Source: Promethearchaeia archaeon (GTDB taxonomy: Archaea; Asgardarchaeota; Lokiarchaeia; Sigyniarchaeales; SOKP01). From it: a stretch of 64,000 nucleotides of DNA. Each line of letters opens with the position of its first letter. Positions within the stretch are counted from its first letter, which is position 1. The stretch covers positions 64,001 to 128,000 of the forward strand of contig JAHQWK010000004.1 in assembly GCA_029856145.1 (NCBI GenBank), given 5' to 3'. This document shows positions 3,102 through 5,935 of this stretch, piece by piece. The notes under the pieces are model-generated. The model did not search any database. It was not told where the DNA came from and saw only the letters and a program-made list of their open reading frames with translations. The translations under genes and the position numbers were made by a program.

Positions 3102-4196
3102 TTATTTTTTTCTTTTTATTGAAATCTCTTTTTGAAAAAATCCCGATTCGATTATACCACTTTTATTTGTGTCAAGATTTGTAAGAATTTCATATGGATA
3201 AAATTTTTCTGCCGCATTTTGGTAATCTAATATCCTATTTCTAGTCAAATATATTGAATACTCTGAAATATCACATCCAATCCATCTCCTCCCCAATTTT
3301 TCAGCTACTACTAAAGATGTTCCAGAACCACAGAAAAAATCAGCAATTAAATCTCCTTCATTAGAACCTAATCTAATAATTCTATCAAGTAATTTATGAT
3401 GTTTTTGTGTAGGAAACCCTGTCCATTCTTTTGATGCGGGTTGCATACAGGGTATTTTCCAAACATCATCCATCTTTTTGTCATTAACGATTCTATATAT
3501 TGTATGTCCGTTCTCATCTTTCACATTTTTTAAAACACCATTCACCATCTCTCTCTTCAATTGTTTTTGAGGTTTTTTTCGGGGAATTCTTACTTGATTG
3601 AAAGTATAGTTATTAGATTTTGAGTACACTAAAATCGTATCATGAGCTCTTGGTAAATTTTTCTTTCCCGCAGAAAATTTGTTATAATAATACCAAATAA
3701 TATTATTAACAAACCTTTTTTCTCCGAAAATTTCATCCAAAATTAACCGAATATAGTGGTTTGCATGCCAATCTGAATGAATGAAAATTAAACCTGTTTT
3801 TGAGAGAATTTTATTAAATAGTATTATCCTATCGTATAACATTTGTAAATAGGAGCTCAAATCTCTATTCCAATGATCATAATATGCAATAGAATCATAA
3901 AATTTATCACTTTCTTTTATTTTGATTTGATAATTGGTACCAGAAAAGAAAGGTGGATCTATGTAAATTAAATCTATTTTTTCATCAAAATTATTTAATA
4001 AAAAAAGTAAAACTTCTAAATTATCACCCCAGAATAGTTTATTCATCCAAGGTTTAGAGTTATTTATAGTCTTTCTTTCTTTATTACTATTAATTGAATG
4101 AGACTCAAAAGAATTAAAAAAATCAGGAGGGAAATCTTTTAGATCTTCCAATTTAGAATAAATATCTTTTTTGTTTTTCCAGATTAATTTAACCAT
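3102..4196 (-). CDS. Orphan beta-class N6/N4 DNA methyltransferase
   Basis: IDLIYIDPPF catalytic motif precedes FPTQKH and ADFFCGSGT (SAM binding). No adjacent endonuclease. Confidence 0.9.
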   Translation of the reverse strand: MVKLIWKNKKDIYSKLEDLKDFPPDFFNSFESHSINSNKERKTINNSKPWMNKLFWGDNLEVLLFLLNNFDEKIDLIYIDPPFFSGTNYQIKIKESDKFYDSIAYYDHWNRDLSSYLQMLYDRIILFNKILSKTGLIFIHSDWHANHYIRLILDEIFGEKRFVNNIIWYYYNKFSAGKKNLPRAHDTILVYSKSNNYTFNQVRIPRKKPQKQLKREMVNGVLKNVKDENGHTIYRIVNDKKMDDVWKIPCMQPASKEWTGFPTQKHHKLLDRIIRLGSNEGDLIADFFCGSGTSLVVAEKLGRRWIGCDISEYSIYLTRNRILDYQNAAEKFYPYEILTNLDTNKSGIIESGFFQKEISIKRKK

Positions 4197-4218: not shown

Positions 4219-4920
4219 TTACTGAATTTCTTTGTTTTCTAAGAGACCGTCAAATTCTCTGTCACTCAGGAAACCCTTGGTAATCATAATATCTTTGATA
4301 CCTTCAATGAGTTGTGGTGCTCCTTTAGCTTCTGCTATTGCTTCTTCTAACGATACTATTTTTTGATTTAATGCTATAATTTCTTTTTCTTTATTTTCTT
4401 TTTCCTCTTTGAGACTTTCAGTTTCTACGTACGTATCTGAAATGGATTTTTGTAACTCACTTTTTAGACCTTCGATTTCATTTTCTTTTTGTTGAACATT
4501 TTCTCTGAGATCTTCATTCTCTTTTTTTAAATTGGCGATTGCATTATCAATTTTTGCAGATGATTCTTTTAATTTGTTTTCTAATTCAGTAACCATAGAG
4601 TTAGATTCAGATAATTTAGTTTCCAAATCTGATTTTGCTGTTCTTAGTTTATTTATCTCTGCATCAGCGTATAGCTTCTCCTCTTTTATTCTCTCAAAAT
4701 TCTTAGTTTTTTCTTTAAAATCTTCAAATTTCTTCTTAGATTCTGATAGATCTTCTTTAGTTGTCTTAAGCTTGGATGAAGTTTTTTCTAACTCCCTTTT
4801 ATTTTGAGTTAATTGTTTTTCTAAAGTATTAATCTTGGATCTGAGATCTAATAAAACCTTTCCCTCAACCGATAGCTTCTTTTCAGGTTTTGCTTCGGCC
4901 TTAACCCAATCGATTGAAAT
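4219..4920 (-). CDS. Coiled-coil protein, paralog A (233 aa, ATT start proposed)
   Basis: Frame stays open far upstream of the ORF-track TTG at 4626. Its N-terminus (I)SIDWVKAEAKPEKKLSVEGKVLLDLRSKI aligns with paralog B. GGTGA SD lies 7 nt before ATT at 4920. C-terminal KGFLSDREF. Confidence 0.8.
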   Translation of the reverse strand: MSIDWVKAEAKPEKKLSVEGKVLLDLRSKINTLEKQLTQNKRELEKTSSKLKTTKEDLSESKKKFEDFKEKTKNFERIKEEKLYADAEINKLRTAKSDLETKLSESNSMVTELENKLKESSAKIDNAIANLKKENEDLRENVQQKENEIEGLKSELQKSISDTYVETESLKEEKENKEKEIIALNQKIVSLEEAIAEAKGAPQLIEGIKDIMITKGFLSDREFDGLLENKEIQ

Positions 4921-5078
4921 TTTCCTTTCACCTTTTCTGTATTTTTATAAATTTAATTTTTTAACATATTTAATTTTATGTTGCTATATATTTATTTTCT
5001 TAAAGTTGATTATTTATAAACTTTACATTAAAGTATTTGTAAATATAAAAAACCAATAATATAAGTGAACTTAGTCTT

Positions 5079-5807
5079 TCATTCTTCCATTTCATTTAGT
5101 AATGATTCAAGCTCCTTGTCGGACAAAAAACCTTTTAATTCCATCAACTTCTTAATTTTTTCAATTATCTCAGTTGATATTACTGCTTTAGACACTTGAG
5201 TTTCAAAGTCTTTAAATTTTTTAATTTGATTATCAGTGAATTTTTTTTCATCCTTTAATTTCTCTTTTAAAGTTTCAATTTCTTCATCTTTATGATTAAT
5301 TTCAGATTTCAGATTTTGAATTTCTTTATCTTTATTTAAGAGTTCTTTTACTTTCTCTAACCTCTCTTCTTCTTTAGTGTGAATTTCTTTATTTCTAGAC
5401 AGGAATTTTTCTTCCATTTCATTTGATTTTGTGGCAAATTTATTTAATTGGTTTTCAAGGTTCGTAATTTTAGCTACTGCTTCGGTTAATTTTTTTTCTA
5501 AATTTGATTTGTTTAAGGCTAATTTGGCTATTTCAATATCACCATGCAATTTCTCTTCCTTAATCTGACTTAATGATTTTCTAGCCGTAGATTTTCTTTC
5601 TGTAAGTTCCGTTAAACTTCTTTCACGCCCTGTTAGCTTTTCTTTGGTTGTTTTCAGTTCACTTGTTTTATTTTTTATATTCTTTTGCTCTTTTCTTAAT
5701 TCCTGTTCTAAATCTTTTATTTTAGCCCTAAGTTCTAGTAGGAATGTTCCTTCAACAGATACTTTTTTATTAGGTTTTGCTTCCACCTTATCCCATTCAA
5801 GACTAAT
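5079..5807 (-). CDS. Coiled-coil protein, paralog B (242 aa, ATT start proposed)
   Basis: N-terminus (I)SLEWDKVEAKPNKKVSVEGTFLLELRAKI. GGTGA SD lies 6 nt before ATT at 5807. C-terminal KGFLSDKEL. ORF track starts at GTG 5786. Confidence 0.8.
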   Translation of the reverse strand: MSLEWDKVEAKPNKKVSVEGTFLLELRAKIKDLEQELRKEQKNIKNKTSELKTTKEKLTGRERSLTELTERKSTARKSLSQIKEEKLHGDIEIAKLALNKSNLEKKLTEAVAKITNLENQLNKFATKSNEMEEKFLSRNKEIHTKEEERLEKVKELLNKDKEIQNLKSEINHKDEEIETLKEKLKDEKKFTDNQIKKFKDFETQVSKAVISTEIIEKIKKLMELKGFLSDKELESLLNEMEE

Positions 5808-5935
5808 TTCATTTCACCATTTCATCGCTTTTTTGAAAATATATAAAGTTACAATAATTTTATATAAAAATTAATTATTTCAGTTTAAAAAAATATTGAA
5901 TTATTAAAATAATATAATCTTTAAATTTTAATTAA

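What the first reader, a model, noticed from the sequence alone, without database searches (positions are those of the whole stretch)
4219..5820. Two tandem paralogs both appear to initiate at a non-canonical ATT codon
Seen: homology between the paralogs starts exactly at an ATT in each (ATT-SIDWVKAEAKP at 4920, ATT-SLEWDKVEAKP at 5807). Each ATT is 6-7 nt downstream of GGTGA, and an in-frame stop lies just upstream. Paralog A has no in-frame ATG/GTG/TTG for 98 codons, so the homologous head cannot be made from a canonical start. Established: GGTGA pairs with the archaeal anti-SD, and AUU starts are used for translational control (e.g. bacterial infC). Inference: conserved AUU initiation that standard annotation truncates.
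Basis: partly seen in the sequence, partly recalled or inferred. Interest (0 to 1): 0.7.

Follow-up and report, generated by a model that had tools for sequence, protein, structure and literature searches.

The report
Coiled-coil paralogs that start at ATT
Two neighbouring genes of an uncultured Loki-type Asgard archaeon almost certainly begin translation at ATT instead of ATG, just behind a ribosome-binding site. This is one clean example of a habit used across this genome, and it makes standard gene finders cut the proteins short.

Summary

**The two genes**
- Both lie on the minus strand and are 37% identical. Each encodes a rod-like coiled-coil protein with a conserved head (S-I-D-W..K.E.KP) and tail (KGFLSD.E).
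- In each, homology begins exactly at an ATT: 4920-4918, and 5807-5805.
- Each ATT sits 7 or 6 nt behind GGTGA and below an in-frame stop.

**Evidence that ATT is the start**
- Across 72 family members from 25 genomes of the genus, that codon is ATT 40, ATA 3, ATC 2, TTG 12, ATG 11 and GTG 2. Leu is always TTG and Val always GTG.
- Codons 2-5 keep their amino acids through many synonymous changes.
- The start class (ATT/ATA/ATC versus ATG/GTG/TTG) switched at least 9-15 times on the family tree.
- Two independent metagenome assemblies carry the same ATT, so it is not a sequencing error.

**Wider context**
- In this genome ATT and ATA starts are about as common as canonical starts among genes with a GGTG(A) site. 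Pfam domains confirm many of them.
- In sister genomes the aIF1 gene itself starts at ATT.
- The ATT is therefore better read as part of a lineage-wide, ribosome-binding-site-dependent tolerance of near-cognate starts than as a strictly conserved, gene-specific switch.
- This scan has already reported the same habit on other DNA of this genome and of related genomes.

The parts
4219..4920 (-). Paralog A coding sequence: 233 codons from ATT 4920-4918 to stop TAA 4221-4219. Coiled-coil rod protein with a conserved head and tail.
   Evidence: Orthologs are full length from this codon.
4918..4920 (-). ATT start codon of paralog A.
   Evidence: Homologous codon in 72 genus genes is ATT 40, ATA 3, ATC 2, TTG 12, ATG 11, GTG 2. 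The same ATT is present in JGI and ENA assemblies.
4928..4933 (-). Shine-Dalgarno site AGGTGA of A, 7 nt before the ATT.
   Evidence: Complementary to the 16S tail GGATCACCTCC of sister genomes. Predicted duplex -8.5 kcal/mol.
4945..4947 (-). In-frame TAA that closes the frame upstream of A. No ATG/GTG/TTG lies between it and the ATT.
4624..4626 (-). TTG, the first canonical in-frame start of A (codon 99). Default gene finders start here or further downstream.
   Evidence: Public orthologs are called at 131-155 aa.
5011..5030 (-). Conserved promoter-like block of A-type genes (taatgtaaag + TTTATAAATA), about 100-91 nt before the ATT. It implies an mRNA with a leader that contains the ribosome-binding site.
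   Evidence: The block is conserved at this distance in most A-type orthologs. The promoter role is inferred.
5079..5807 (-). Paralog B coding sequence: 242 codons from ATT 5807-5805 to stop TGA 5081-5079.
   Evidence: The AlphaFold2 model is one helix over residues 18-225.
5805..5807 (-). ATT start codon of paralog B.
   Evidence: B-type orthologs carry ATT, ATC, ATA, ATG or GTG at this codon.
5814..5818 (-). Shine-Dalgarno site GGTGA of B, 6 nt before the ATT. Its TGA (5816-5814) is the in-frame upstream stop.
   Evidence: Predicted duplex -7.4 kcal/mol.
5784..5786 (-). GTG at codon 8 of B, the canonical start used by public gene calls. It is not conserved as a start.
   Evidence: Codon 8 is GTG in only 2 of 68 aligned genus genes.
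5814..5825 (-). Mini upstream ORF ATG AAA TGG TGA that overlaps B's ribosome-binding site. Role unknown.
   Evidence: Similar 3-4 codon upstream ORFs occur in B-type orthologs of G005, G008 and G021 but not in others.
5858..5870 (-). Conserved TATA-like element TTTTTATATAAAA of B-type genes, about 63-51 nt before the ATT.
   Evidence: Conserved in B-type orthologs. The promoter role is inferred.

Best explanation
Both genes are intact and expressed from their own promoters as mRNAs with a leader. Translation starts at AUU. The GGUGA upstream pairs with the 3' tail of 16S rRNA and places the AUU, 6-7 nt downstream, in the ribosomal P site. Initiator tRNA then accepts this near-cognate codon, which matches at two of its three positions. 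The products are 233 and 242 residues long and begin with the conserved head (Met/Ile)-S-I/L-D/E-W.

The proteins are rod-shaped coiled coils: about 208 residues of continuous helix with a short head and tail. They are probably structural or scaffolding proteins, and that function is only inferred.

The ATT is not peculiar to these genes. In this genome and genus, ATT/ATA/ATC starts are tolerated widely wherever a strong, well-spaced ribosome-binding site is present. Within this family the start codon and the strength of that site change together. By analogy with bacteria, AUU probably lowers the yield compared with AUG, and the strong site partly compensates.

Shown: the sequence anatomy, the codon exchange among orthologs, purifying selection on the head, the complementarity to 16S rRNA, the genome-wide recurrence and the truncated public calls. 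Inferred: actual initiation at AUU, decoding by Met-tRNAi, the effect on expression and the protein's function.
For: 1. Anatomy: see the observation check.
2. All four paralogs of this genome put a start-type codon at the same aligned position: ATT three times and TTG once.
3. Genus-wide codon counts at that position are given in the summary. Leu there is TTG 12 of 12 and Val is GTG 2 of 2, in a genome of 30% G+C.
4. Homologs in other families of the order mostly have ATG (10 of 17, plus 3 with ATG one codon on).
5. Codons 2-5 (S, I, D, W) keep their amino acids through many synonymous changes, including both serine codon boxes: AGT 25, TCA 23, AGC 8, TCT 4. The head is therefore translated.
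6. The family tree of 87 proteins needs 15 switches between ATT/ATA/ATC and canonical starts, at least 9 of them on well-supported branches.
7. 43 of 45 ATT/ATA/ATC-start members have GGTGA at 5-7 nt, against 4 of 25 canonical-start members (Fisher 7e-12). Mean predicted duplex energy with the 16S tail is -9.0 kcal/mol, against -6.3 for ATG and -7.3 for TTG starts.
8. The 16S 3' end is GGATCACCTCC in three genomes of the genus.
9. DNA near-identical to paralog A, including the ATT, occurs in separate JGI and ENA assemblies.
10. Genome-wide: behind GGTGA, long ORFs with no upstream canonical start begin at ATG 22, ATT 16, ATA 15, TTG 14 and GTG 6. Control codons give far fewer, for example AAA 7 of 754 and TTT 3 of 577.
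11. In 13 of 20 such candidates a Pfam domain starts at residues 2-25, upstream of the first canonical start. Examples are RagA/Arf, Ras, AFOR_N, response-regulator receiver, DsrE, DUF134, TetR_N and Fer4.
12. aIF1 in 11 of 11 readable loci of the genus has no canonical start and begins at ATT.
13. Conserved TATA-like blocks lie 50-100 nt upstream, which implies leaders that contain the ribosome-binding site.
Against: - There is no direct evidence of initiation: no ribosome profiling, N-terminal peptide or transcript start is available.
- For paralog B, GTG seven codons downstream could be used as well or instead. It would remove only 7 residues.
- The link between start class and ribosome-binding-site strength is not corrected for shared ancestry. 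The independent-pairs test on the tree was underpowered (about 4 pairs with, 1 against, 4 unchanged; median p 0.38).
- The 16S 3' end, aIF1 and any tRNA-Met were not found in this genome's own assembly. Those statements rest on sister genomes.
- Three ATT/ATA/ATC-start orthologs also have an in-frame canonical start shortly upstream: the A-type gene in L007, the B-type gene in L011 and the gene in L049.
Confidence: 0.88

Rival explanations
1. Gene-specific translational control. The ATT is kept by selection in this family to hold these abundant-type structural proteins at a low or factor-sensitive level. This would resemble infC, with aIF1 as the discriminating factor. It is an added layer on the best explanation, not an alternative start site.
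For: - The family is strongly enriched for such starts: 45 of 72 genus members and 3 of 4 paralogs in this genome. Genome-wide the figure is about 1.5% of long ORFs.
- One subfamily (the C19 type) uses ATT, ATA or ATC in 8 of 8 species.
- ATT was kept across paralogs that are only 25-40% identical.
- aIF1 in the genus itself starts at ATT.
Against: - At least 9-15 switches to and from ATG/TTG/GTG occurred within one genus.
- In two species pairs (G013/G015 and G002/G003) both tandem genes have canonical starts.
- Paralogs may simply have inherited ATT and GGTGA through duplication.
- AT-biased mutation (30% G+C) favours ATG changing to ATT or ATA.
- No expression data exist.
Confidence: 0.25
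2. The annotated canonical starts are the real ones (TTG 4626 for A, GTG 5786 for B). On this view the upstream homology is untranslated sequence.
For: Default ORF calling and public databases use these starts or later ones.
Against: - A would lose 98 codons, including the family's most conserved block. W5, P12, G20, L23 and L24 are invariant in 46 sequences.
- That block evolves by synonymous change.
- TTG 4626 has no conserved counterpart. Orthologs with ATG or TTG at the head codon are called full length.
- Codon 8 of B is GTG in only 2 of 68 genes.
Confidence: 0.04
3. For paralog B only: the AUU is reached by re-initiation after the three-codon upstream ORF (ATG AAA TGG TGA, 5825-5814). 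That ORF ends 6 nt before the AUU. Direct ribosome loading at the binding site would then not be needed.
For: The upstream ORF exists. Similar 3-4 codon ORFs that end in the TGA of GGTGA occur in B-type orthologs of G005, G008 and G021.
Against: - The upstream ORF is absent in other ATT-start B-type orthologs (G010, G023, G004) and in all A-type, C19-type and C2-type genes.
- GGTGA at 6-7 nt is the shared feature, present in 43 of 45.
Confidence: 0.05
4. Artefact or decay: a sequencing or assembly error of ATG to ATT, or two pseudogenes that have lost their start codons.
For: None beyond the missing canonical start. The genome is a metagenome-type assembly of 32 contigs with 5.4% estimated contamination.
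Against: - The same ATT is present in independent JGI and ENA assemblies.
- ATT/ATA/ATC occurs at this codon in 45 genes from 24 genomes.
- The frames are intact and under purifying selection.
Confidence: 0.01

Closest known systems
Bacterial AUU/AUA starts behind strong Shine-Dalgarno sites: E. coli infC and pcnB (own knowledge; infC reviewed in PMC4705826), and S. aureus infC, cvfC1, ccpN and citZ (PMC13009471)
   Same: A near-cognate AUU or AUA sits at optimal spacing behind a strong or extended Shine-Dalgarno site. It is conserved among relatives and missed by annotation. In S. aureus reporters such starts gave roughly 10-30% of the AUG output.
   Different: - In bacteria these are a handful of genes proofread by IF3. 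Here the machinery is archaeal and of eukaryotic type (aIF1, aIF1A, aIF2).
- Here such starts are about as frequent as canonical ones among strong-site genes of this genome.
- Here the codon is freely exchanged with canonical starts among close species.
'Rare ATT start codon' proposed for the tubulin gene atubA of an Asgard (Kariarchaeaceae) genome (PMC13394414)
   Same: [quoted passage not shown] An upstream ATT restores the conserved N terminus and puts a likely ribosome-binding site at a plausible distance.
   Different: That is a single gene, mentioned in the methods as a rarity. Here the evidence comes from 72 homologs plus genome-wide statistics.
Autoregulation of start-codon proofreading factors through their own poor start: bacterial infC (AUU), and eukaryotic eIF1 with its weak start context (own knowledge)
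   Same: In this genus the aIF1 gene has no canonical start and begins at ATT. In other genera of the order it begins at ATA, TTG or ATG.
   Different: No functional test exists. aIF1 was not found in this genome's own assembly. The two genes of this finding are not initiation factors.
Coiled-coil-rich cytoskeletal proteins of prokaryotes (crescentin and other intermediate-filament-like proteins)
   Same: A long uninterrupted helical rod flanked by a short head and tail. Weak matches to the Filament, Rod_CreS and similar Pfam models.
   Different: All these matches fall below the Pfam cut-offs and are typical of any coiled coil. No filament data exist. The conserved head and tail motifs match no described family.

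Membership tests
Shine-Dalgarno-led near-cognate (AUU/AUA/AUC) translation starts | A near-cognate codon sits exactly where homologs have a canonical start. | tested here: met
   See the genus codon counts in the summary. The fourth paralog of this genome has TTG at this codon.
Shine-Dalgarno-led near-cognate (AUU/AUA/AUC) translation starts | No usable canonical start lies between the upstream in-frame stop and the conserved N terminus. | tested here: met
   A: TAA at 4947, then 8 codons with no ATG/GTG/TTG. B: TGA at 5816, then 2 such codons.
Shine-Dalgarno-led near-cognate (AUU/AUA/AUC) translation starts | A strong Shine-Dalgarno site, complementary to the 16S 3' tail, at optimal spacing. 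| tested here: met
   GGTGA lies at 7 nt (A) and 6 nt (B). The 16S tail GGATCACCTCC was read in three sister genomes; the tail was not found in this assembly. 43 of 45 ATT/ATA/ATC-start members have GGTGA at 5-7 nt.
Shine-Dalgarno-led near-cognate (AUU/AUA/AUC) translation starts | The codons directly after the proposed start are translated, that is, under purifying selection. | tested here: met
   S-I-D-W is conserved through many synonymous changes, and W5 and P12 are invariant.
Shine-Dalgarno-led near-cognate (AUU/AUA/AUC) translation starts | Direct evidence of initiation at the codon (ribosome profiling, toeprint or N-terminal peptide). | not testable with these tools
   No expression or proteome data are held for this organism.
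infC-type autoregulated or translationally controlled genes | Output from the AUU start responds to the level of the proofreading factor. | not testable with these tools
   The only related fact is that aIF1 of the genus itself starts at ATT.
infC-type autoregulated or translationally controlled genes | The near-cognate start is strictly conserved among orthologs. | tested here: not met
   At least 9-15 switches between ATT/ATA/ATC and canonical starts occurred within the genus.
Intermediate-filament-like / crescentin-type coiled-coil proteins | A long continuous helical rod with a short head and tail. | tested here: met
   AlphaFold2 on 46 sequences: helix over residues 18-225, mean pLDDT 88.
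Intermediate-filament-like / crescentin-type coiled-coil proteins | A match to the family profile above its curated cut-off (PF00038 Filament, PF19220 Rod_CreS). | tested here: not met
   The best matches score 10-27 bits against cut-offs of 40 and 100.
SMC / 'chromosome segregation ATPase' (the name JGI gives to some homologs) | An ATPase head domain with Walker motifs. | tested here: not met
   The proteins are 233-242 residues long and almost entirely one helix. No ATPase family was found.

The most novel reading that the evidence does not exclude
Start-codon choice is relaxed across this Lokiarchaeial lineage. When the ribosome-binding-site duplex anchors the mRNA, the eukaryote-type initiation machinery accepts AUU, AUA or AUC nearly as a normal start. 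aIF1, which itself starts at AUU, would set the stringency through a feedback loop like that of infC. Start codon and ribosome-binding-site strength would then co-evolve as a dial for protein output. This four-paralog coiled-coil family, with at least 9-15 switches in one genus, would be a natural experiment that shows the dial in action.
Probability: 0.45. Interest if true: 0.8.

Novelty: new variant of a known kind. Interest (0 to 1): 0.6.

Why it matters
- **Annotation.** Standard gene finders allow only ATG, GTG and TTG. They remove the conserved head of these proteins, or more than 40% of paralog A, and do the same to many other Asgard proteins. This distorts the protein families used to argue about the origin of eukaryotes.
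- **Mechanism.** Archaea use eukaryote-type initiation factors. The reviews read here list only AUG, GUG and UUG as archaeal starts (PMC7531240). Frequent AUU/AUA initiation that depends on a ribosome-binding site, in the closest relatives of eukaryotes, would bear on how start-codon stringency evolved. An AUU-started aIF1 gene in the genus adds to this.
- **Value of this family.** Its four paralogs and repeated switches between start classes make it an unusually clean comparative data set for the phenomenon.

Tried and rejected
- **Function of the proteins.** Pfam gave only sub-threshold coiled-coil matches. The ESM Atlas gave only unnamed archaeal clusters and meaningless structural matches with TM at most 0.25. 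The AlphaFold2 model is a single long helix, so no fold search was run. A literature search for Asgard coiled-coil or intermediate-filament proteins found nothing on this family.
- **A dedicated initiator tRNA reading AUH.** This could not be tested. ARAGORN and Rfam find only 23-25 tRNAs in this assembly, many with introns, and none with a CAT anticodon that looks like an initiator. The one intron-containing 'tRNA-Met' from ARAGORN lies in the window, but default ARAGORN and Rfam do not support it. Anticodon-arm pattern searches hit only coding DNA.
- **16S 3' end and aIF1 in this genome.** Neither was found, so sister genomes were used instead.
- **Ancestry-corrected test of the link between start class and ribosome-binding site.** It was underpowered.
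- **A leaderless transcript starting at the ATT.** Considered because of a TATA-like run at 4950-4941. Rejected because that run is not conserved, whereas GGTGA and a TATA block further upstream are.
- **First regular-expression scan for the head motif.** It missed some members and was replaced by an HMM search.
- **No complex prediction was run.** No binding claim is made.
Full report
**1. The observation**

Reading the minus strand confirms every stated detail.

Paralog A:
- It runs from ATT 4920-4918 to the stop at 4221-4219 (233 codons).
- The ATT is preceded by AGGTGA (4933-4928) and a 7-nt spacer.
- The frame is closed by TAA at 4947-4945, and none of the eight codons in between is ATG, GTG or TTG.
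- The first canonical in-frame start is TTG 4626, at codon 99. Mechanical ORF calling starts there and gives 135 aa.

Paralog B:
- It runs from ATT 5807-5805 to the stop at 5081-5079 (242 codons).
- The ATT lies 6 nt behind GGTGA (5818-5814).
- The TGA inside that GGTGA is the in-frame upstream stop. This follows automatically from a 6-nt spacing.
- GTG 5786 is codon 8.

The two proteins align over their whole length from the ATT codon (37% identity, E 7e-34). The upstream DNA is alignable only from the ribosome-binding-site region onward.

**2. More paralogs in the same genome**

The genome (3.55 Mb, 32 contigs) holds two further paralogs.
- One (contig 19) reads GAGGTGA, 6 nt, then ATT AGT ATT GAT TGG, with the SD's TGA in frame.
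- The other (contig 2, with a C-terminal CxxC...CxxC tail) reads GAGGT, 8 nt, then TTG CCA ATC GAC TGG.

All four paralogs therefore place a start-type codon at the same aligned position: three ATT and one TTG.

**3. Orthologs**

The family was found in 39 of 41 related genomes, including all 24 of the same genus. It usually occurs as the tandem pair plus one or two dispersed copies. After more regions were fetched, an HMM of the head located 89 genes.

The codon aligned to the window's ATT:
- In 72 genes of the genus it is ATT 40, TTG 12, ATG 11, ATA 3, ATC 2 and GTG 2.
- Two further genes have a start shifted by a few codons. One has ATG five codons upstream; the other has TTG one codon downstream.
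- In 17 genes from other families of the order it is mostly ATG: 10, plus 3 with ATG at the next codon. The rest are TTG 2, GTG 1 and ACG 1.

At this position Leu is always TTG and Val always GTG, although the genome has 30% G+C. The only codons seen there are those that can act as starts.

The next four codons keep Ser-Ile-Asp-Trp through heavy synonymous change: Ser is AGT 25, TCA 23, AGC 8, TCT 4; Ile is ATT 27, ATC 19, ATA 19; Asp is GAT 36, GAC 27. W5, P12, G20, L23 and L24 are invariant in a 46-sequence alignment. The head is therefore translated, and translation begins at this codon.

**4. Dynamics on the tree**

A maximum-likelihood tree of 87 proteins, built without the first residue, resolves four subfamilies in the genus: A type, B type, contig-19 type and contig-2 type.
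- It needs 15 changes between ATT/ATA/ATC and canonical starts.
- At least 9 of these are forced by well-supported branches. The shuffled mean is 27.7, and no shuffle of 500 was as low.
- The contig-19 subfamily uses ATT, ATA or ATC in 8 of 8 species. The other three subfamilies are mixed.

So ATT has persisted for a long time and across deep paralogs, but it is not strictly conserved.

**5. Ribosome-binding site**

The 16S 3' end reads GGATCACCTCC in three genomes of the genus. It is not in this assembly.

Within the genus, 43 of 45 ATT/ATA/ATC-start members have GGTGA at 5-7 nt, against 4 of 25 canonical-start members (Fisher 7e-12). Predicted duplex energies average -9.0 kcal/mol, against -6.3 for ATG and -7.3 for TTG starts (Mann-Whitney 2e-7).

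These tests ignore shared ancestry. The independent-pairs test on the tree points the same way but lacks power (median p 0.38).

**6. Transcription units**

Upstream alignments show conserved TATA-like blocks:
- A type: taatgtaaag + TTTATAAATA, about 100-91 nt before the start (window 5030-5011).
- B type: TTTTTATA(T/A)AAAA, about 63-51 nt before the start (window 5870-5858).
- The contig-2 type has a third such block.

This suggests separate promoters and leaders that include the ribosome-binding site. It is an inference from conservation only. A T-run follows B's stop.

**7. Not an error, and annotation does truncate**

- Two independent public assemblies (JGI 3300032170 and ENA ERZ6006181) carry DNA near-identical to paralog A, including GGTGA, the spacer and the ATT. 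Their gene call there is 131 aa.
- An NCBI genome record (GCA_054388735.1) has GGTGA + 6 nt + ATT AGT ATT GAC TGG, but its protein starts 22 codons later.
- Of 27 database homologs, about a dozen are 5'-truncated calls and the rest start with M-S-I-D-W.
- The ESM Atlas holds paralog B only from residue 8.

**8. Genome-wide context**

This scan was run before the scan's earlier notes were consulted.
- Behind GGTGA at 5-8 nt, ORFs of at least 100 codons with no upstream canonical start begin at ATG 22, ATT 16, ATA 15, TTG 14, GTG 6, ACG 4 and ATC 3. AT-rich control codons give 0.5-0.9% (AAA 7 of 754, AAT 5 of 568, TTT 3 of 577).
- Requiring in addition no canonical start in the next 10 codons leaves ATG 16, ATA 13, ATT 12, TTG 9 and GTG 5, with controls at 2 or fewer. 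These counts include the three family genes.
- Among 2718 ORFs of at least 150 codons, most have no GGTG site. [quoted passage not shown] Where a site is present, the first in-frame codon it leads is ATG 35, ATA 20, ATT 20, TTG 9 or GTG 4.
- Twenty candidates were scanned against Pfam. In 13, a domain starts at residues 2-25, ahead of the first canonical start. Examples: Gtr1/RagA and Arf at residues 4-7 with the next canonical start at codon 55; Ras at 2; AFOR_N at 6; DsrE at 6; DUF134 at 2; TetR_N at 18; the rubredoxin-like domain of rubrerythrin at 6; receiver domains at 4 and 8; and Fer4 at 3 behind a CTG.

**9. Initiation factor aIF1**

- aIF1 (PF01253) was not found in this assembly but is present in 23 of 24 sister genomes.
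- In all 11 readable loci the frame opens after TGA TAA, has no canonical start before the zinc knuckle, and carries a conserved ATT as its third codon.
- In other genera of the order the homologous start is ATA (one), TTG (two) or ATG (one).
- This reproduces a lead from earlier notes of this scan. It parallels infC, but nothing functional is shown.

**10. What the proteins are**

- There are no Pfam matches above cut-off.
- AlphaFold2 on the 46-sequence alignment gives one helix over residues 18-225, a low-confidence head and a short C-terminal helix after the invariant G226-F227 (mean pLDDT 88).
- They are best described as a Lokiarchaeial family of coiled-coil rod proteins with a conserved head and tail, probably structural. 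JGI's name 'chromosome segregation ATPase' is not supported, because no ATPase domain is present.
- Neighbours: a DNA methylase (PF01555) directly downstream on the same strand. This B, A, methylase order is kept in public contigs. DUF72 lies upstream on the other strand.

**11. Literature**

In the library searched, archaeal reviews list AUG, GUG and UUG as starts (PMC7531240). The only Asgard ATT start found is a single 'rare ATT start codon' proposed for a tubulin gene (PMC13394414). The best mechanistic analogues are bacterial: infC and pcnB, and the S. aureus AUU/AUA starts with extended Shine-Dalgarno motifs that give about 10-30% of the AUG output (PMC13009471).

Earlier reports of this scan describe the same genome-wide habit on other pieces of this genome and in related genomes. 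They were treated as leads, and the claims used here were re-tested.

**12. Verdict**

AUU initiation at both genes is the only reading that fits the comparative data (confidence about 0.9 for A, slightly lower for B because of the nearby GTG). It belongs to a lineage-wide use of near-cognate starts that depends on a ribosome-binding site, rather than being a gene-specific device. Gene-specific tuning remains possible. Direct proof (proteomics, ribosome profiling, transcript start mapping) is missing.

Noticed in passing
window 5814-5825 (- strand): A three-codon upstream ORF, ATG AAA TGG TGA, ends in the TGA of paralog B's GGTGA, 6 nt before the ATT. Similar 3-4 codon upstream ORFs occur in B-type orthologs of G005, G008 and G021 but not in others.
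   Followed up: partly
window 3102-4196 (- strand): An N6/N4 DNA methylase (PF01555, E 2e-48) starts 23 nt after paralog A's stop on the same strand. The gene order B, A, methylase is kept in public contigs L109-L111.
   Followed up: partly
L094-L105 (aIF1 loci of sister genomes); L115-L118 (other genera): The aIF1 (SUI1) gene of the genus has no canonical start and begins at a conserved ATT after TGA TAA. In other genera of the order the same codon is ATA, TTG or ATG. aIF1 was not found in this genome's own assembly (97% complete).
   Followed up: partly
L003:1072-1917 (- strand; genome contig 2): The fourth paralog starts at TTG behind GAGGT. It carries a C-terminal CxxC...CxxC zinc-ribbon-like tail that the tandem pair lacks. 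This long subfamily is present across the genus.
   Followed up: partly
L071 (genome G029, another family of the order): A family member has ACG at the start position, 6 nt behind GAGGTGA, with the site's own TGA in frame. This is a possible ACG start.
   Followed up: no
genome contigs outside the window: C2:47503, C7:148193, C19:30234, C19:4609, C28:64857, C30:66845 and others: Many other genes of this genome appear to start at ATT, ATA, ATC or CTG, 6-7 nt behind GGTGA. Their Pfam domains begin ahead of the first canonical start. Examples are a RagA/Arf-like GTPase, a Ras-like GTPase, aldehyde:ferredoxin oxidoreductase, an ETF-alpha with an N-terminal ferredoxin domain, rubrerythrin and DsrE.
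   Followed up: partly
whole genome G000: The assembly lacks a detectable 16S 3' end. It yields only 23-25 tRNA matches, many 85-113 nt long and therefore probably intron-containing. No tRNA with a CAT anticodon was recognised.
   Followed up: partly
window 5011-5030 and 5858-5870 (- strand): TATA-like blocks upstream of the A-type and B-type genes are conserved in position across the genus. They may be useful as promoter models for this lineage.
   Followed up: partly
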